64,000 nt of DNA from the human T2T-CHM13v2.0 reference genome, Homo sapiens, in NCBI RefSeq assembly GCF_009914755.1, contig NC_060925.1. The stretch is one strand, 5' to 3'. The notes beneath the pieces are model-generated. The model did no database searches. It was not told the origin of the DNA and was given only the letters and a program-made list of their open reading frames with translations. The position numbers and the translations under genes were made by a program. Below are positions 18,895 through 51,360 of the stretch, piece after piece (positions within the stretch are counted from its first letter, which is position 1; each line of letters starts with the position of its first letter).

Positions 18895-19816
18895 TGAGTA
18901 GCTGGGATTACAGGCGCCCACCACCATGTCTGGCTAATTTTTTTCTATTTTCAGTAGAGACAGGGTATCACCATGGTTGGCCAGGCTGATCTCGAACTCC
19001 TGACCTCATGTGATCCGCCTGCCTCAGCCTCCCAAAGTGCTGGGATTATAGGCGTAAGCCACTGTGCCTGGCCCCAAATTTCAAATGCATTCTCCTGGAG
19101 AAGGGTTGCTGACCCACTGCCTACCGATTTTCACTGTCCCCTTACCCACCCCTAAATGACTGCCACACCCTAGTCCCCTCTATCTCAAAGACTCACTGAC
19201 CATCCCCAAATGTCTCTTCCCCTGTGTCTTAACCCAGCATTTGAAGCCTTCCACAATTTGGTCTCATGATTCACCCTGTCCTTCAACTATCCCAGACCAT
19301 TTTCTGTTCCCAGAGTACACCTTCACTATCCTACCTCTAAGCCTTTGTGCAGGCTGTTCCTCCACCTGGAATGCCCTCTCTCATTTCCATGTAGTAAATT
19401 AGTCCTTAATGTCCAGCTGGGAGGTCACCTCCTCCAGGCAGTCTTCCTTACTCCCTCAGATGGAGTCATTTTCCCCTCTGGGCTCTGGGCATACAATTGC
19501 TTTAGGGTCTTCCTCATAGGAAGCCGTGAGTAACAGCAGGAACATCCATTATCCACACTTTGCAAATGCCTTTCCCTTCTAGTATCATGGTCCTGGGAAA
19601 AGCAGCAGGGTGAGAGCCATTAACTCCTTTGACTGATGAGGAGACAGGCTAGGAGGAAGTCATAAGCCCCGTAAATGGTGGAGACAGGATTCAAACCCGA
19701 AACGGCCACACCGGCTGCCTTGGGCCTGAAAGTCCTCTCCCTCTCTACCATTTCTTGTGGCCTGGTCTTGTGACTCTCTGCCCCTTTGTCAGTCTCAACT
19801 TTTAATAATTCGCTCA

Positions 19817-21270
<1,454 letters not shown>

Positions 21271-22754
21271 AATTAAAAAATACTACTAGATTAATTACTA
21301 TTTGCAAATATATTTTCACATACTCTCATTTAACCATCACAACAGCTCTATATAAAGTTAGCACTATTATTAATCTCATTTTACCCCAGGGTGGGGGGCG
21401 GGTGCCTTGCCCCAAAGCCCAAAACCCAGACTCACCTGCCTCCAAATCCCTACCTCGTAACCCCTGGGCAATACTGTCTGGTGGGCAGGTGTGATATAGG
21501 CAAGTGAAAGGTACATCAATGTGCTTGGGAGCCTGGTTGTCTATGTGTGTGTGTGCGCACATGTGTGTGCTCGCGCACCAGGCTTCCCCAGGGGATTCAC
21601 AGGGATAGAGACTGAAAGGGTCTCAAGTGTCCTGATTTCTGGTCGAAGGATCCAACACTTCTCTAGTCCCTTGGAGCCCACCTCCCTCCATCAGAAAACA
21701 TCTCCCCAGTCAAAGGGCTCAGTCTGACCCTCCTCTGCTAGACTATGGGCTCCTTGAAGGCAGGAACCAGGGCCCTGAAGCCTCAAACAGGACCTGATTC
21801 AGAGAAGTCCTCAGTGAATTTGGAGGGGGGGAGAGTCAGTCAATGTATGACTTTTAATTCAGTTATGTATCAATATAACAATAACATCAATAATTATAAT
21901 AAATGCTAATGCTTATTGCATGCTTACCCTGGGACTGGCACTGTTCTTAGCACTTGACATGGATTCTTTCATTCAATTCTTGCCACAACCCTTGAGGAAA
22001 ATACTTTCATTAACCCCACTTTGCAGAGGAGGAAACTGGCTTGGAGAGAGTTAGTAGCTCACCCAAAGTAACTCAATTAGGAAGTGGCAGCGTTGGGGAT
22101 TGGAACACAGGAAGTCTAGTTACCCCATTTAGTAGGAAGATCACTACATTCAGAGGAAGGCTTTGTCCTCAGCGAGCCTCAGTTTGCCATATTTGTCCAA
22201 AGAAAGGGTTAGTTTTCCACGGTGCTCTGGCCTGGAATATTCTATGATCCTATGATTCTGTGACGAAGAGCTTTTGAAGTGTCAGGGTTAGTTTTAAAAT
22301 GAAAGAGGCCATTCTGCCGGGTGGTGAGCTTCCTGACATGGGCATATGTAAGCCAGCTCAGGCCTGAAATGGGAGGGAGGGGATGAGACTTCGGCCAGTG
22401 ACCATGGAAGCGTTGATGGAGTGGACCATCAGGAGGGGAAAAGTCACTGAGAAGAGTGGCAAGGCGGGCACGACAGGATCCAGAACTCGCTTTTACGGAA
22501 CGCCTACTGTGTACCAGACCTATGCTTGACATTTAACTTACATCGCTAATTCTCAGGAAAACATTGTAAGATTTATGGTTGACGAAATTCAGATCCAGAG
22601 AAGTGACTTGTTCAGGGTCACGCCGGACGAAGTGGTAGGACAGGCGATCCAGGTGAGTCTCCTCAGGGTCACTTCCCTAGATCCCCTCTGACCAACCCCT
22701 CTACCTAGTACCTTTAGGAGCAGTACCAAGTGTCAAATTGCTTCACACTTTTGT

Positions 22755-23700
22755 CATATGACGTCACACCAGTCAATCCAGGAACTCCCTGCCCTTCCCT
22801 CCCCTGACCTCTGGGGTCTATCAAAGCAGCCCCCGGCTCAGTGTCCCCGCCGGACGAGGCTACACCTGCAGCCCCCGCCCCTTCCCAACTGCGACTCTCG
22901 CACTCCTCTGCCCGGGCCTCCCCCTCCCCGCCCCGCTGATCGGCAGTTGCCTGCGCCAATCAGAGGGCCTAGCGGGCGGGGCGGGGCCTCACGATGGAGT
23001 TGCCCTGTCAGTGCAGGTGGAGGCCCCGGCGGGGCAAAGTGGCAGGAACCTCTTAAAGGGCGAGAGCGGCGCGGAGCCAGAACGCGGTCGGCCCGGTCCC
23101 CGCCGCACCCAGCCCAGGTGAGCCTGGACCACCTGGGGGGCGACCCTCGGTCCCCGGGAGGGACGGGGTTAGGGACAGAAGAACCTACCCCCAAGGGCTC
23201 GGACCGTCCCGGGAGAGGCGAGACCAGGGTCGAAGGGTCCAGGGCTGAGGGGTCCAGCGGTCCCGAATTCCAGAATCCGAACTTGGGGTCCAAAGGAGTC
23301 TGGGCATCTTAAAGTTCAGGGTGCAGGGAGGGGCGTGGGAGTCTGGAGAGGGGGTCCGGGAGCTCGGATCCGGAGCTAGACACGTCCGGGTCCGGCCGGT
23401 CCTGGCTGTCTGGGGCGGGGGTCCTGCATTCGGTGTCCGCGGGAGAGTCCCTGCAGGTCGGCGCAGCCCCCGGCCGCCCCCTAGCCCCGCCTTGCCCGGC
23501 CCCGCATGCTCCTGCCGGGCCCGCAGCAGCGCTGGAGCGGGCTGGCGGCTAGCAGCGGGAGGGGGCTCCGGGGCCTGGAGCCCCGCGCCCCGCTCCGGCC
23601 CTTACGTAACTGACTTTGAGTTTCCGGACCCAGGAACCGACCCGCCAGCTGGGGCGCCGGCTGTGCCCGCCAGGGTGGCCCCCCCGGCCGTCGCGCCAGC
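22755..23700 (+). promoter_or_regulatory. EPB41: CpG-island promoter of exon 1A
   Basis: High CpG density; CRE TGACGTCA 22759-22766; GC boxes 22927-22934 and 22974-22987; CCAAT 22956-22960; TATA-like TTAAA 23053-23057. Confidence 0.88.
23060..23117 (+). other. EPB41: Non-coding alternative first exon 1A (start approximate)
   Basis: gcggagccagaacgcggtcggcccggtccccgccgcacccagcccag recalled as an EPB41 5' UTR; strong donor CAG|GTGAGC at 23117/23118. Confidence 0.82.
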
Positions 23701-27992: not shown

Positions 27993-29621
27993 TCAAAAAA
28001 AAAAAAAAAAAAAAAAAAAGAATAACACCACCATTTATTGCACAGTTGCCGGTACCAGGCATTGTACTCAACTTCACCTCTCATTGTATCATTAACCCCC
28101 TACAGCAACTTTGTCAGGTAGGTGGTACCCCTCACCCATGCTGGGTCCCTCCAAAACCCATGCCAACAGCCCCTGTAATGATAGTAGCAAACGCTTCTGA
28201 ATGGTTTACTGTGTGCCAAGCATCCTTCCAGACGTGTTACATGTATTGACCCATGTTAATCCTCACATCAACCCTGTGAGGTGGATACTAATATTATCTC
28301 CAGTTTGCAGATGAATAAATGAGGCATAGACAAGTAAAAACGAGGCCAGGCGTGGTGGCTCAAGCCTATAATCCCAGCACTTTGGGAGGCCGAGGTGGGT
28401 AGATCACCTGAGGTCAGGAGTTTGAGACCAGCCTGACTAATACGATGAAACCCCATCTCTACTAAAAATACAAAAATACACGGTGGCATGCGCCTATAAT
28501 CCCAGCTACTTGGGAGGCTGAGACAGGAGAATCGCTTGAACCAAGGAGGCGGAGGTTGCGCCATTGCACTCCAGCCTGGGCAACAAGAGGGAAACTCTGT
28601 CTCAAACAAACAAACAAATAAACAAAACAAAACAAAACAAATGGCCCCAATGTCACAAAAGGTAGAGCCATAAATAGTGAAGTCAGGATTTTCCCAGGTT
28701 CTTTTTTTTTTTTTTTTTTTTTTTGAGACAGAATCTTACTCTGTTGTCCAGGCTGGAGTGTAGTGGTGCGATCTTGGCTCACTGCAACCTCTGCCTCCCA
28801 GGTTCAAGCAATTCTTGTGCCTTAGCCTCCTGAGTAGCTGGGATTATAGGCACCCACCACCATGCCAGGCTAATTTTGTATTTTTGGAGAGACGGAGTTT
28901 CACCATGTTGGCCAGGCTGGTCTCAAACTCCTGGCTTCAAGTGATTTGCCTGCCTCGGCCTCCCAAAGTGCTGGGATTACAAGTGTCAGGTTCTTTTATT
29001 CTGAGATAGGGTCTCACTCTGTCGCCCAGGTTAGAGTACAATGGGGTGATCACGGCTCACTTCAGCCTTGACCTCCTGGGCTCAAGGGAGCCTCCTACCT
29101 AAGCCTCCTGAGTAGGTGGGACTCCACCACACACACCTAATTTTCGTATTTTTTGTAGAGATGGGGTTTCCCCATGTTGCCTAGGCTGGTCTTGAACTCC
29201 TGAGCTCAAGCAAAACTCCCACCTCAGCCTCCCAAAGTGCTGGGATTATAGGTGTGAGGCACCGTGCCCGGCTGGCCCAGGTTCTTAAAGTCTCCTCCTT
29301 GACACAATCATCACAGTTGTAATTCAGTAGTTATTTACATGATTGTCTCCTCACTGCATTGTAAGCTCCATAAGTACAGGGGCCATGTCTGTCTTCTTCA
29401 GGCTGTATCCCCAACACCTGGCACACAGCAGGTGCTCAGTTAATGTTTGTTCACAGGGACGCTGCTGCCTCTAGTGGGCTGGGCCCTGGAGGCCTGATGA
29501 GCTGAGGGTGGATTATCAGATTATTGCTGACTAGGGCGTCTGCCCCAGCAAGACCCCAGAGGCAGAGGAAGGGCAGGGTTCCCTCCTGGCTCAGGCCCTG
29601 GCTGAAGAAGGGGACCCAAAG

Positions 29622-29746
29622 GGCTTTTTCTTTGGCTGTGCTGTGTGTCTCACTGCTGTCCTTTGTTTCCATGTGCCACTGCGGTGATGGCTCCATGGCC
29701 TCTCCTGGACTGGCTGCGTGACCCCGACGGCTGCTTCTGGGTGAGT
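29622..29746 (+). other. EPB41: Exon 1B 3' part / intraexon: branch point, pyrimidine tract and 5' donor
   Basis: CTCAC 29649-29653, tgctgtcctttgtttcc tract, no AG from 29622 to 29743, donor TGG|GTGAGT at 29740/29741; 6.6 kb downstream of exon 1A. Confidence 0.75.
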
Positions 29747-31251
29747 AATGGTTTGACTTAATGACTGCCACATGAGCTGATTTTAATGCATGTCCTGTGG
29801 CTCTGAGGCCACTGGGAGGCGTAAAGAGAGGCCCGGGGGTAGGGGTGGAAATGCTGAGAGAGGGCACTCTGTGATTTTAGGATCCTACCATAAGCAGGGC
29901 CTACCAATTAAACACACTGGGTGCTGATTTTTTGGTCACATGATACAATGCAAAGGTCTTTGGGGCAGACTGGGCTGGAATAGAATCCTTTTTCTGTTGC
30001 ATACAGGTGGGTGATTCTTTGCATCTCAGTTTCACGTCTGCAAAATAAGAATATGAATACTTATGGGACACAAGTATATTTGTTCTTTTATTCATGTAAG
30101 CCCCACAAGGGCAGGGATTTTTGTTCATCTGTTCACCAGGTGCTGTATCTTCAGCGCCTAGGGTATAGTAGCACGTAGTAGGTGCTCACTGAATGTTTCC
30201 AAAGGAATGAAGATATTTATTGACTGTTTATGGTATACCTATCAATGTGCTTTGTATTGGATTAAATGGCTAATGGATATAAAGGGCCCAGCATGATAGG
30301 GGCTCAGTGAATGTGAATTCCCTATTTGCTCAATAGACTGTGACTTTCTTGGGGATCAGGGCTCTGGTAAAGTGAGCTCTGGGTCTTCTGAACTTAGTAA
30401 GGGGCCAAGTACCAAGCATGTATCAATCAGCACAGAGAGGGGCCTGGCAACTGGACTTCCTGGAGAGGGAGTGACAGAGCCTCTAGTTTTCATCAGAAGA
30501 GAGAGGCAGCTGGGAAGATCTGGGGCAGAAATGGGAGGGATGGGGAGGGACTCTGCCTTCTAGTACTGCCACTTTTCCTTGTCCAGGTGTGACCCTGGAC
30601 AAGGCATGCTCTTCCCTGAGTCTTGGAGACCTCATCTGTGATGTACATATCACAACACTTTCCCCGCATAGGTGTGGGAAGGAGTTGATGAGAAGAGCCC
30701 ACACAGGGCCCCATTTGGTAACTTCCCAGCCCTGGGCTCATTCTGGGATTCTGGGAGGGGACTATGTGTTCCTCTTTCTGGCTTTTTTCTCCTACTTTTA
30801 ACTGCTCACCCAGCTGGGACTGGAATCCAAGGAGCCCCTGAACTTCCCAGCAGACTGGCCAGGGCCCTGGGATAAGGGCTGGGCTCTGCCTGGTGTGGGA
30901 GGAGCTGAGTGGAGGTTCCAGCTCTGCCACTCTCGCTGTGTGACTTGGTTCTGTAACCCCTTCTCTGCCTCGGTTGCCTTACCTGTAAAGTAGGGTTATT
31001 AAAAGACACCTCCCTTGAAGAATTGTTTAATTAGAAAATAGGTGGATTAGGCATTATTATCCATAATGCTATTTGGCTCTGGCTGAGGTGACTCTAGGGA
31101 GGGCCCTGAAGAATTACATCCCACTGTGGCCCAGGGAGCCTGGGACTCACTAGTCATCATGTGTATTATTGCCATTTATTGGCTATTTCTTATGGGCTGG
31201 GCTGGTTATATGCTATTTTAGACACATTATCTCATGCATTCCTCCTAGTGA

Positions 31252-31691
<440 letters not shown>

Positions 31692-33254
31692 TAAGGCCCA
31701 AATTCTTAGTGTGAAACTCTCATATTTCTCCCAAGGAGGTAGAGTGTACATCTGAATTCTCTTTGTCCATCTCCCATGACCAGTACACGGCTGGTGGGAG
31801 CTACTGACGTGTTTGTCGGATAAATAAATTCATGCACACACACTGCACCCCCACCCAGGCCTGCTGCTGTAAGAGTTTTAAAGAGAAAAGATAATAGAAA
31901 ACAGGAGAAGGCTGGACAGCTTGGCACTTGAGGGTCAGACAGGCCTGACTTTGCATCTTGCATCTATTGTTTACCAGTTGTGTGACCTTAGGCAAGATAT
32001 CTAACCTCTTGGAGCCTCAGTTTTCTTACCTGTAAAATGGGGAAAATAAAAGAACCTACCTACCTCTTAGGCTTCTTGTGAGGATTAAATAGTGAGGCAC
32101 ATGGTGAGCATTCAACAAATAGTAGCAATGGTTATTGTTATTATTATAATTATGAATATTATTTGGGGATTATAAAGATGTTCCTCTTGGGACAAAAGAG
32201 ACCAGGTCTGGGAGGGAACTTCTGGGGACAGGTGGTGGATAGCAGCCTAGTCTGACAGACTCCTGAAGGCATGTGAAGGGAGGGAGGTGGCCTCATGGAA
32301 GTAAGAATGTACCTCCCTTTTCTAGTCATCTGCTTTTCCTCTGTGTCAGGCCCTGTGCTGGGCATGGGGCCCAGAGATGAATCTGTGTAGTCCTTCCCCA
32401 CCTTCCCCACCGGGAGCTCGGAGTCTAGTTGGGAAGAAGATGCAGAAATCACCAACTCCACCTTTATTGAATAGGTGTTCTTATGCAAAGGGCAGGAAAA
32501 AAGACATTCCTAGTGGAAGGAACAGCATGTGCCAAGGTACACAACTGCCTGCACTTGGGGGAATGCAGCTGAAGAGACAGGCTCAAGACAATGAGTGAGG
32601 ACTTGACCTATGGCAATGGAGAGTCACTGGATAGTAAGCAGGGAGGGGCAGGGACAGGGGCAGGAGGAACTGTCCAGGTGAGAGATGCCGAGATCTTGGG
32701 CTGGGGACTGTGCCATGGGATAAGGAGCAGTGAGCGATGTGAAGTCTGTTTAGGAGGCAGAGCCAGCAGGGCGTGATAATGAACTGCAGTGGCCAGAGAG
32801 GAGAGGAGAGGGCCAGAGGGAGATCTTGGGGCCTGGGGCCAATGGGGCCCACTGGGGTCTCTGGCTGAGGGACATATCTGGGAGGAGGAGGCAGAGCTGG
32901 GTTGAGGGTAAAAGCCATTCAGCTGCTCTCACTACCTTTCCCCTCAGTTTCCCAGGCAGCAGCTATGTCTGAGCTGGACACTGGGGCAAGGCCTGTGGCC
33001 ACCAGGGCCCAGGGTACCCACTCCTATCTCAGGGGTCCCTTGTGGTGACCCTGGTAGGTCTGGTAGGGATGAGACCTCTTTGGGGTGGGGGCCAGGCAGG
33101 AGCTGTGTGGTGCAGAAAAGCCCTGGGTTCTAGACCTACCAGTGTTACTGAGTGTCTGTGCCACCTCAGGAATCACCAGGCCTGGTGGCTCACACCCGTA
33201 ATCCCAACATTTTAGGAGGCTGAGGCAGGAGGATCACTTGTGCCCAGGAGTTCA

Positions 33255-50139: not shown

Positions 50140-51360
50140 CATGCCCCACGTGGGTGCTGCGGGATCCCGGAACACCCCGGCTCCAGACCGGGTTCGACTT
50201 GCGCGTGCGCACACGCGGCCAGCCCCTTGCCTTTTCCTCTCTCTTTTTCGTTCCCCTCTCCTCTCCTTACCGGCCTAGGGGAGGGGGGAAACAAGGGGAG
50301 CTAGAAGTTGGCCTCAGCCAATGGGCGGACGGGCCGCGGGCCCGGCCCCCTCCTTCCCTCCGGCGCGGCCCAATAGAAATTTACTACAATGTTGTGGCGA
50401 ACTGAGGGGGAGGGGCGCGGGCCGGCGGGCGGGCTGCGGGCCGGGCTGGCCTCGCCTCGCAGAGGGAAGGCGGGAGGGCGCGCGCCAGGGTCGCTCGCTC
50501 GCTCCCTCCCTCCGCTGGTGCGTTTAGTCAGTCAGCCAGCAGCAGCCGGCGGGCCCGCGAGCCGCAGAGGGCCCGAGCCTCGGACGCCGGCGCCTCCTCC
50601 TGCCATTGTTCGTCGGGCTGCAGCAGTGGCGGGCGCAGGAGCCCGGCCCCGGAGCCACCGGTGAGGCGAGGCGGCGGCGGCGGCGCGGGAGCCGGGGCGG
50701 TGGGCGTGGAGCTGTCCCCGTGGGGACGGTCCTGGCGGCCGCGGCGGCGCTGCAGCCTCTTTGTCTGCAACCCCCGACAGGCCCCGGGCCGGGGCGCGGG
50801 CTCTCCCGCGGAGGAGCCTCGTGTGCACGCCGAGTCGCCAGCCGGGACGCGGCCCGAGGAGCGAGGGGCGGGCCAGAGCCGCTGAGGAAAGGGGAAGGGG
50901 TTGCGTCGCGGGAGTGTTGGAAAGTTAGGCTTGAGATGTATTTTTGACGAGGGAAAATCGGTCCCCTCGGGTGCGTCAATCACGGTGCGGTGTGCAGGAG
51001 CCTCGGGAGGAAACCAAATGCGGAGAATCGCAGGTTTCAGACGGTGAAGGTGTTGCGTGCAGCCGCGGAGCGATTTCTTCCTGGCGAGGGAGCTGGGCTG
51101 TCTGCAGAAGTCAGGCGGAATCTGAGGACTGCAGGGAGCCCTGGCAAGACTTCGCAGGCCTTCCCGCCACCGACGCCTGCATCATTGAAAAACATGTTCC
51201 CCCTTAGTCTTCTGGGTTCCCAGCGAGCAGAGGGTTAAATCTATTCTCTCAGCGTCGTGACCTCCTTTTTCAGTTCGCGCATCTGTCGGCTTGGAAATCT
51301 TCCTCCGTGCTCGCTGGGCTGCTGTACCTGTGGAGAGGCCGGGTCTGGGCTCGCCCTCCG
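50140..51360 (+). promoter_or_regulatory. EPB41: CpG-island promoter of exon 1C
   Basis: Very high CpG density; E-box CACGTG 50147-50152; NRF1 TGCGCGTGCGCA 50200-50211; CCAAT 50318-50322 and 50370-50374; GC boxes; no TATA. Confidence 0.9.
50506..50660 (+). other. EPB41: Alternative first exon 1C, no ATG (start approximate)
   Basis: Ends ...ggagcccggccccggagccaccg with donor CCG|GTGAGG at 50660/50661; position relative to exon 1A fits recalled EPB41 layout. Confidence 0.8.

What the first reader, a model, noticed from the sequence alone, without database searches (positions are those of the whole stretch)
29622..29746. Intraexon: an acceptor lacking its AG fused to a perfect donor (nested intrasplicing element)
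Seen: yUnAy branch point CTCAC (A at 29652), a pyrimidine tract, no AG for about 120 nt (29622-29743), then TGG|GTGAGT. A normal exon has AG after the tract; here it is missing. Known (recalled from Conboy-lab work on 4.1R): exon 1B first splices to the proximal exon 2' acceptor, bringing its branch point next to the distal exon 2 AG, and exon 1A then re-splices over it and removes AUG1. Promoter choice thereby sets the 80 vs 135 kDa isoform; exon 1C lies downstream and escapes this. Inference: this element is that exon 1B. It is the most remarkable system here but is already described.
Basis: partly seen in the sequence, partly recalled or inferred. Interest (0 to 1): 0.85.

Follow-up and report, generated by a model that had tools for sequence, protein, structure and literature searches.

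The report
Known EPB41 intraexon (exon 1B)
This deep-intron stretch of the red-cell protein 4.1 gene fits the published 'intraexon' that makes transcripts from the upstream promoter skip the first start codon, so it is real and elegant but not new.

Summary
Window 29622-29743 has no AG (122 nt), CTCAC sits at 29649-29653, and TGG|GTGAGT has its cut after 29740.

An AG-free run alone is common: 6 runs of 120 nt or more lie in the 100-kb intron. The pairing with a strong donor is unique. [quoted passage not shown]

Joining 29740 to the proximal exon 2' acceptor makes the distal acceptor the first AG after the branch motif. That AG lies behind the 17-nt exon 2' that holds AUG1.

A blind scan of the paralogue EPB41L3 found one matching element, 120,959 nt upstream of its own pair of consecutive AGs around AUG1. 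It has 117 nt without AG, CTCAC and TGG|GTGAGT.

RefSeq first-exon usage fits. All 58 models starting at the downstream exon use the proximal site. Of 12 starting at the upstream exon, 9 use the distal site.

This matches the Conboy-lab intrasplicing element. Those primary papers were not readable here, so identity with 'exon 1B' is inferred. Verdict: already known, absent from RefSeq.

The parts
23007..23117 (+). Upstream alternative first exon of EPB41 (exon 1A by position), donor CAG|GTGAGC. Its transcripts contain the element.
   Evidence: RefSeq rows: 12 NM models start here, 9 joined to 123404 (distal) and 3 to 123387 (proximal). U1 duplex -11.1 kcal/mol.
29618..29633 (+). AAAG followed by the T-rich tract CTTTTTCTTT, upstream of the branch motif. 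The AG at 29620-29621 is the 5' border of the AG-free zone. It has no pyrimidine tract before it (5 of 20 pyrimidines in 29600-29619), so it is a poor acceptor.
   Evidence: Read. The same AAAG + T-tract arrangement is in EPB41L3.
29649..29653 (+). CTCAC, candidate branch-point motif (A at 29652).
   Evidence: Only yUnAy match in the 119-nt body. CTCAC occurs twice in the EPB41L3 element at similar offsets. Use as a branch point was not tested.
29654..29670 (+). Pyrimidine-rich tract downstream of the branch motif (14 of 17 pyrimidines), with no AG after it.
   Evidence: Read.
29622..29743 (+). AG exclusion zone, 122 nt in the genome. The exon-like body is 29622-29740 (119 nt).
   Evidence: After joining to exon 2' the AG-free stretch extends 15 nt further and ends at the distal acceptor AG.
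29738..29748 (+). Strong 5' splice site TGG|GTGAGTAA, cut after 29740.
   Evidence: U1 duplex -12.0 kcal/mol, among the 4 best of 3386 GT on the + strand, stronger than the donors of both annotated first exons. Unique among AG-free-preceded GT sites of the intron.
50461..50660 (+). Downstream alternative first exon (exon 1C by position), in a CpG island. Its transcripts start 20.7 kb downstream of the element and so lack it.
   Evidence: all 58 models starting here join 123387 (proximal, keeps ATG1). CpG o/e 0.89.

Best explanation
Window 29622-29746 (chr1:28,735,622-28,735,746 of T2T-CHM13) is the intraexon of EPB41, which the literature calls exon 1B or iE(R). It is half an acceptor (branch motif plus pyrimidine tract, with no AG) joined to a strong donor.

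Step 1, in pre-mRNA started at the upstream promoter (exon 1A, 23007-23117): the element's donor at 29740 splices to the proximal acceptor of exon 2' (window-equivalent 123387). This removes 93,646 nt, including that acceptor's own branch site, tract and AG.

Step 2: the element's branch site now faces an AG-free stretch that ends at the last two bases of the 17-nt exon 2'. The exon 1A donor therefore splices to the distal acceptor (123404). That discards the element and exon 2' together with AUG1. Translation then starts at AUG2 and gives the 80 kDa protein.

Transcripts that start at exon 1C (50461-50660) lack the element, use the proximal acceptor and keep AUG1 (135 kDa).

Shown here: the anatomy, the logic of the simulated intermediate, the RefSeq pairing of first exons with acceptors, and the paralogous element in EPB41L3. 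Inferred from literature passages and recall: the order of the steps, branch-site use, and the name 'exon 1B'.
For: Anatomy.

Uniqueness. This is 1 of 48 GTRAGT sites in the window with more than 55 nt AG-free upstream. In the full 100,269-nt intron it is the only one of 36 GT sites with 80 nt or more AG-free upstream that pairs well with U1 (-12.0 against -4.1 or weaker).

Target. The proximal AG, then the 17 nt CAACATCATGACAACAG holding ATG1, whose last two letters are the next AG.

Intermediate. The first AG after 29621 is the distal acceptor, 105 nt from A29652. [quoted passage not shown]

Coupling. 58 of 58 exon-1C models use the proximal site and 9 of 12 exon-1A models the distal site. 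PMC5507979 (passage) says exon 1A transcripts encode only the 80 kDa protein. PMC2614411 (abstract and passages) says the two mRNA types differ by 17 nt that hold AUG1.

Paralogue. A blind scan of EPB41L3 found one element with 117 nt AG-free, a T-tract, two CTCAC and TGG|GTGAGT. It ranks first of 66 GTRAGT sites by AG-free run and first of 86 AG-free-preceded GT sites by U1 pairing in the 130 kb upstream of exon 2. It lies 120,959 nt upstream of a proximal AG, followed by 33 nt that hold ATG1, followed by the next AG. Its CTCAC-to-AG distances are 109 and 123 nt.

Genome-wide. GTCTCACT-N60-90-TGGGTGAGT has 16 matches. By eye, only 2 are AG-free in the 80 letters shown, and they are EPB41 and EPB41L3.

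Literature passages. PMC7373989, PMC3439910, PMC4482092 and bioRxiv 10.1101/159350 describe intrasplicing and the intraexon in EPB41 and the 4.1 genes.
Against: - The primary papers were not readable, so no published sequence or coordinate of exon 1B was compared.
- No RNA data were available: no junction, lariat or start-site evidence. RefSeq has no exon or functional-element row here.
- The region is not a CpG island (o/e 0.20), so its role as a first exon is unsupported by sequence.
- AG-free runs of this length are common: 6 of 120 nt or more in the intron. Given its base composition, the EPB41 run has p = 0.056.
- The EPB41 and EPB41L3 bodies show no significant overall sequence similarity (z 0.77; 493 of 2000 shuffles score as well). 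BLAST of 29560-29800 against the genome finds only itself. Common descent of the two elements is therefore not shown; they share architecture and short motifs.
- The motif pairs are not enriched genome-wide: 16 matches against 41 for the reversed control, and 800 against 658.
- Three of 12 RefSeq exon-1A models use the proximal acceptor, so the coupling is not absolute in the annotation.
- Orthologues could not be examined.
Confidence: 0.9

Rival explanations
1. It is only an ordinary alternative first exon (or a chance donor in an A-poor stretch). On this view the missing AG has no function, because a first exon needs no acceptor.
For: AG-free runs of 120 nt or more occur 6 times in the intron. 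Given the composition, 5.6% of shuffles are AG-free. No overall similarity to the EPB41L3 element.
Against: No CpG island or annotated start site here. The AG-free stretch continues through exon 2' exactly to the distal acceptor. EPB41L3 has the same arrangement, with composition-conditional p = 0.0045 and the same consecutive-AG target around ATG1. It is the only strong donor preceded by a long AG-free zone in either intron.
Confidence: 0.05
2. It is a cassette, poison or decoy exon that uses the AG at 29620-29621 as acceptor and 29740 as donor.
For: An AG lies directly at the 5' border, and a 119-nt exon would be of normal size. Decoy exons in erythroid introns are described by the same laboratory (PMC7373989, passages).
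Against: The 20 nt before that AG hold 5 pyrimidines. The tract and the branch motif lie downstream of the AG, the reverse of an acceptor. RefSeq shows no such exon in 70 EPB41 models.
Confidence: 0.03
3. It is a recursive splice site (ratchet point or RS-exon) that only serves to remove the long intron in pieces.
For: Deep-intron position in a 100-kb intron, with a strong donor. Reviews liken RS-exons to intrasplicing (PMC5126111, passage).
Against: A recursive site needs AG directly before GT. Here the bases before GT are TGG, and there is no AG for 119 nt.
Confidence: 0.01
4. It is only a U1-binding site that protects the long intron from premature cleavage and polyadenylation, with no splicing role.
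For: Very strong U1 pairing. [quoted passage not shown]
Against: It does not explain the branch motif, the tract, the AG-free zone or its continuation to the distal AG, nor the matching EPB41L3 element.
Confidence: 0.01

Closest known systems
EPB41 (protein 4.1R) exon 1B / intraexon iE(R), intrasplicing (Parra et al., EMBO J 2008; Mol Cell Biol 2012; titles seen in reference lists, contents recalled)
   Same: Gene, and position between the two annotated first exons. Strong donor, no acceptor AG, branch motif. Target is the 17-nt exon 2' with AUG1. The outcome is tied to first-exon choice. I take it to be this very element.
   Different: Nothing known to differ. Published letters and coordinates could not be compared because the papers are not held. 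RefSeq does not annotate it.
EPB41L3 (protein 4.1B) intraexon iE(B), recalled as about 120 kb upstream of exon 2
   Same: Found here blind at chr18:5,770,427-5,770,311 (minus strand). It has AAAG plus a T-tract, CTCAC, 117 nt AG-free (119 in EPB41), the identical TGG|GTGAGT, and consecutive AGs flanking ATG1. Branch-motif-to-AG distances are 109 or 123 nt, against 105.
   Different: Exon 2' is 33 nt rather than 17. There are two CTCAC motifs. The removed intron is 120,959 nt rather than 93,646. No significant overall sequence similarity.
Exons with distant branch points and AG exclusion zones (Gooding et al. 2006, PMC1431707)
   Same: Branch site and tract at the 5' end of a zone of 100 nt or more without AG. 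The 3' site is chosen as the first AG downstream.
   Different: There the zone is contiguous in the genome. Here it is assembled only after a first splice joins two pieces that lie 94 kb apart.
Recursive splice sites and RS-exons (Drosophila Ubx; vertebrate long introns)
   Same: Deep-intron element used in a multi-step removal of a long intron. A strong donor is used and then discarded.
   Different: Recursive sites are AG|GT junctions used first as acceptor and then as donor. This element has no AG and is used first as donor and then as branch site.
Decoy exons in retained introns (Parra et al. 2018; PMC7373989)
   Same: Unannotated deep-intron splice signals with a regulatory role in erythroid genes.
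   Different: Decoys have both splice sites and block intron removal. This element lacks the acceptor AG and promotes a productive two-step splice.

Membership tests
4.1-gene intraexon (intrasplicing element) | Lies deep in the first intron, downstream of an upstream first exon and tens of kb upstream of the regulated acceptors | tested here: met
   6,504 nt after exon 23007-23117 and 93,646 nt before the proximal acceptor. The 'tens of kilobases upstream' wording is in PMC7373989.
4.1-gene intraexon (intrasplicing element) | Strong consensus 5' splice site | tested here: met
   TGG|GTGAGTAA, 7 of 9 consensus positions, U1 duplex -12.0 kcal/mol, among the best 4 of 3386 GT sites.
4.1-gene intraexon (intrasplicing element) | Branch-point motif and pyrimidine tract with no AG after them (feature as recalled) | tested here: met
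   CTCAC at 29649-29653, tract at 29654-29670, no AG from 29622 to 29743.
4.1-gene intraexon (intrasplicing element) | Target is a pair of consecutive AG dinucleotides, with the upstream start codon between them (title of Parra 2012 seen; details recalled) | tested here: met
   Acceptors at 123387 and 123404, 17 nt apart, ATG1 inside, no AG between. Likewise in EPB41L3, 33 nt apart.
4.1-gene intraexon (intrasplicing element) | After the first splice, the first AG downstream of the element's branch site is the distal acceptor | tested here: met
   Simulated intermediate: the AG falls at nt 16-17 of exon 2', 105 nt from A29652.
4.1-gene intraexon (intrasplicing element) | First-exon choice predicts acceptor choice | tested here: met
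   58 of 58 downstream-first-exon models use the proximal site. 9 of 12 upstream-first-exon models use the distal site and 3 of 12 do not.
4.1-gene intraexon (intrasplicing element) | Spliced intermediate and lariats exist; mutating the donor or branch site redirects exon 1A to the proximal acceptor | not testable with these tools
   No reads and no experiments. Reported in the primary papers as I recall them, which were not readable here.
4.1-gene intraexon (intrasplicing element) | Conserved among vertebrates | not testable with these tools
   No vertebrate genomes are on hand. Only the human paralogue EPB41L3 could be compared: the architecture is kept and the sequence is not.
4.1-gene intraexon (intrasplicing element) | Also serves as an alternative first exon (exon 1B) with its own promoter | tested here: inconclusive
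   No RefSeq transcript starts here. CpG o/e is 0.20. No start-site data.
Recursive splice site | AG immediately followed by GT | tested here: not met
   TGG precedes GT, and there is no AG within 119 nt upstream.

The most novel reading that the evidence does not exclude
The two human intraexons share almost no sequence. Yet they keep nearly the same body length (119 and 117 nt), nearly the same spacing from CTCAC to donor (88 against 90 or 76 nt), and nearly the same spacing from CTCAC to the final AG (105 against 109 or 123 nt). They also share an unexplained AAAG + T-tract upstream of the branch motif. This may reflect a physical ruler: a U2-U1 complex must assemble across an AG-less 'exon' of fixed size for the two steps to be coupled. 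If so, the simple recipe used here could find further unannotated intraexons genome-wide. The recipe is a strong U1 site preceded by 80 nt or more without AG and carrying a branch motif. It picked out exactly one site in each of two introns of 100 kb or more.
Probability: 0.2. Interest if true: 0.5.

Novelty: already known. Interest (0 to 1): 0.3.

Why it matters
The element decides whether red-cell precursors make the 80 kDa or the 135 kDa form of protein 4.1R. It sits 6.5 kb from the nearest annotated exon and has no row in RefSeq. A variant in its donor (29741-29746), in its branch motif, or one that creates an AG inside 29622-29740 would therefore be filed as deep-intronic and ignored, although the model predicts it would switch the isoform.

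For the scan, this is a positive control. A reader working from raw sequence recovered a real, experimentally described regulatory element. A simple rule also recovers its paralogue. A preprint states that the regulatory effect of intrasplicing has been shown in a single case, the 4.1R gene (10.1101/159350, passage). A genome-wide search by this rule therefore remains open.

Tried and rejected
Literature. Look-ups of Parra 2008, Parra 2012, Parra 2011 and Huang 2009 by DOI or PMC id all failed as not held. Six full-text searches gave only secondary mentions. None gives the sequence, size or coordinates of exon 1B. PMC9750877, PMC7550591 and PMC3038977 were opened and held nothing on this element. 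Supplements are closed. Supplementary primer tables and figures of PMC5507979 (exon 1A analysis) might bear on exon coordinates and were not seen.

Homology.
- BLAST of 29560-29800 against the whole reference found only itself.
- The exon 2 peptide found no paralogue, only itself and one E = 1.4 match.
- A MAFFT alignment of the two elements was out of register.
- A global alignment was no better than shuffles.
So descent of the two elements from one ancestor is not shown.

Structure. Folds of both elements are no more stable than shuffles (z -0.22 and -0.09). Rfam gave 12 sub-threshold matches, all in 28500-29274 in the Alu-like repeat and none in the element. ORFs and repeats around the site show nothing of note.

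Genome-wide motif pairs are not enriched over the reversed control. The second list was cut at 99 of 800 places, so it could not be used to look inside EPB41L1 or EPB41L2.

Rejected readings: recursive site (no AG|GT); cassette exon (no tract before the AG at 29620); chance (paralogue and composite AG-free zone).

Full report
**What is there.** AAAG ends at 29621. From 29622 to 29743 there is no AG (122 nt). CTTTTTCTTT lies at 29624-29633 and CTCAC at 29649-29653 (A at 29652). A tract with 14 of 17 pyrimidines lies at 29654-29670. TGG|GTGAGTAA has its cut after 29740. CTCAC is the only yUnAy match in the 119-nt body. The stretch lies outside the masked repeats; the nearest are 28692-29276 and 31384-31695. 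It has no RefSeq exon or functional-element row.

**Is it more than chance?** The AG-free run alone is not.
- It is the longest on the + strand of the window (next 106), but the - strand has runs of 155, 140 and 135.
- The complete intron from exon 1A to exon 2' has 10 runs of 100 nt or more and 6 of 120 nt or more. I assembled that intron from the window and seven fetched loci (100,269 nt).
- The body has only 8 A in 119 letters, and 5.6% of 100,000 shuffles of it are AG-free.

The conjunction with the donor is more than chance.
- Among 48 GTRAGT sites on both strands of the window, the median AG-free distance upstream is 6 nt. The second longest is 55, and this site has 119.
- Among 5540 GT sites in the intron, 36 have 80 nt or more AG-free upstream. 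This site pairs with the U1 5' end at -12.0 kcal/mol. The next best of the 36 reaches -4.1.
- The donor matches 7 of 9 consensus positions, so it is not 'perfect'. It is still among the best 4 of 3386 GT sites on the + strand, and it is stronger than the donors of the two annotated first exons (-11.1 and -8.8).

**The target.** RefSeq gives two acceptors for the second exon, at window-equivalent 123387 and 123404. I fetched that place (L001).
- A good pyrimidine tract ends in AG.
- Then come the 17 letters CAACATCATGACAACAG. They hold ATG1, which is where the RefSeq coding part starts.
- Those 17 letters end in the next AG, with no AG between the two.
- PMC2614411 (abstract and passages) says the 135 and 80 kDa mRNAs differ only by 17 nt that hold AUG1.

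**The logic of the two steps.** I joined 29740 to 123387 in a script. In that product the first AG after 29621 is the last two letters of exon 2', which is the distal acceptor. It lies 105 nt from A29652. The first splice therefore removes the proximal acceptor with its own branch site and tract. It also builds a composite 134-nt AG-free zone, with the element's branch motif and tract at its 5' end. [quoted passage not shown] A second splice from the exon 1A donor then has to land on the distal AG and removes AUG1. I could not test the order of the steps or which A is used as branch point.

**Coupling to first exons.**
- All 58 RefSeq models that start at 50461-50660 join the proximal acceptor. 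That exon lies downstream of the element, so the element is absent from those transcripts.
- Of the 12 models that start at 23007-23117, 9 join the distal acceptor and 3 the proximal one.
- PMC5507979 (passage) says exon 1A transcripts were shown to encode only the 80 kDa protein.
- The three exceptions in RefSeq count against a strict rule, or they are composite models. I cannot tell which.

**A paralogue as an independent test.** No vertebrate genomes are on hand, so I scanned EPB41L3 in the same reference with the same rule and without using any motif of the EPB41 element.
- In the first 13 blocks of 10 kb (130 kb, every other 10 kb of the gene), 60 GTRAGT sites lie on the gene strand. One had 117 nt AG-free upstream and the next 70.
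- After I filled the gaps, the contiguous 130 kb upstream of exon 2 holds 7237 GT sites. Of these, 86 have 80 nt or more AG-free upstream, and this site is first by U1 pairing (-10.4, next -7.3). It is also first of 66 GTRAGT sites by AG-free run (117, next 85).
- Its anatomy repeats that of EPB41: AAAG, a long T/C tract, CTCAC twice, then TGG|GTGAGT.
- I found EPB41L3 exon 2 in L019: a tract ending in AG, then 33 letters holding ATG1 that end in the next AG.
- The element lies 120,959 nt upstream of it. In the simulated intermediate the first AG is again the distal one, 109 or 123 nt from the two CTCAC adenines.
- This agrees with my recollection of the abstract of Parra et al. 2012 (an intraexon about 120 kb upstream of exon 2 in the 4.1B gene). 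It also agrees with passages I read: deep-intron elements tens of kb upstream of the regulated acceptors in two 4.1 paralogues (PMC7373989), and the 'intraexon' of vertebrate 4.1-family genes (PMC4482092).

**What the paralogue does not show.**
- The two bodies have no significant overall similarity (global alignment z 0.77; 493 of 2000 shuffles score as well).
- BLAST of the EPB41 element finds only itself in the genome.
- The shared motif pair is not enriched genome-wide. GTCTCACT-N60-90-TGGGTGAGT has 16 matches against 41 for the reversed control. By eye, only 2 of the 16 are AG-free in the 80 letters shown, and they are the two 4.1 genes.
- The looser pair has 800 matches against 658 for the control, and only 99 were listed.
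So the two elements share an architecture and short signals. Whether they descend from one ancestral element is open.

**Other checks.**
- There is no stable RNA fold (z -0.22 and -0.09).
- There is no Rfam family in the element, and no repeat or ORF of note.
- The place is not a CpG island (o/e 0.20, against 0.62 and 0.89 at the two annotated first exons). Its second published role as a first exon (as I recall it) finds no support in the sequence or in RefSeq.

**Comparison with what is known.**
- It works like, and I believe is, the EPB41 exon 1B / iE(R) of the Conboy laboratory.
- Its nearest relative is the EPB41L3 intraexon.
- It differs from recursive splice sites, which need AG|GT and act first as acceptor.
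- It differs from ordinary distant-branch-point exons, whose AG-free zone is contiguous in the genome.
- It differs from decoy exons, which have both splice sites and hinder splicing.

**Verdict.** The element is real and already described. The session adds its exact place in T2T-CHM13 (chr1:28,735,622-28,735,746), the fact that RefSeq omits it, and a simple rule that singles it out, and singles out its paralogue, in introns of 100 kb or more. Confidence that this is the published intraexon working by intrasplicing is 0.9. The remaining doubt is that I could not read the primary papers or any RNA data. Interest is 0.3.

Noticed in passing
window 29618-29633; L013 431-406 (minus strand): In both EPB41 and EPB41L3, an AAAG directly precedes a T-rich tract that lies upstream of the CTCAC motif(s). 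It could be an alternative branch site plus tract, since an AG that close to a branch can be bypassed (PMC1431707). It could also be a protein-binding site. Unexplained.
   Followed up: partly
L013 405-398 and 313-306 (minus strand): In EPB41L3 the first CTCAC with its flanks (GCTCACCC) is complementary to the donor core and pairs with it in the minimum-energy fold. The fold is no more stable than shuffles (z -0.09).
   Followed up: partly
L027, chr18:5,747,839 (minus strand): A second, weaker candidate of the same kind in the EPB41L3 first intron: 85 nt AG-free, TTAAC, CAT|GTAAGTAA, U1 pairing -7.1.
   Followed up: no
window 29671, 29687, 29695: There are three ATGs inside the element, all out of frame with AUG1, opening frames of 16, 29 and 8 codons. 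They would be upstream start codons in any mRNA that begins with this exon.
   Followed up: no
window 23007-23117 joined to 123387: Three RefSeq models (NM_001166005.2, NM_203342.3, NM_203343.3) join the upstream first exon to the proximal acceptor. This is against the reported exclusive coupling.
   Followed up: no
window 19668-21388: RefSeq lists GATA1-motif enhancer elements 2-3 kb upstream of the upstream first exon. That fits its use as the erythroid promoter.
   Followed up: no
window 28560-29276: Sub-threshold Rfam matches to SRP RNA and to Alu-derived microRNA families lie here, inside masked repeats. This is an Alu-like repeat about 350 nt upstream of the element.
   Followed up: no
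window 29451-29867 (minus strand): A 138-codon open frame runs antisense across the element. It was listed mechanically, has no annotation, and was not searched.
   Followed up: no
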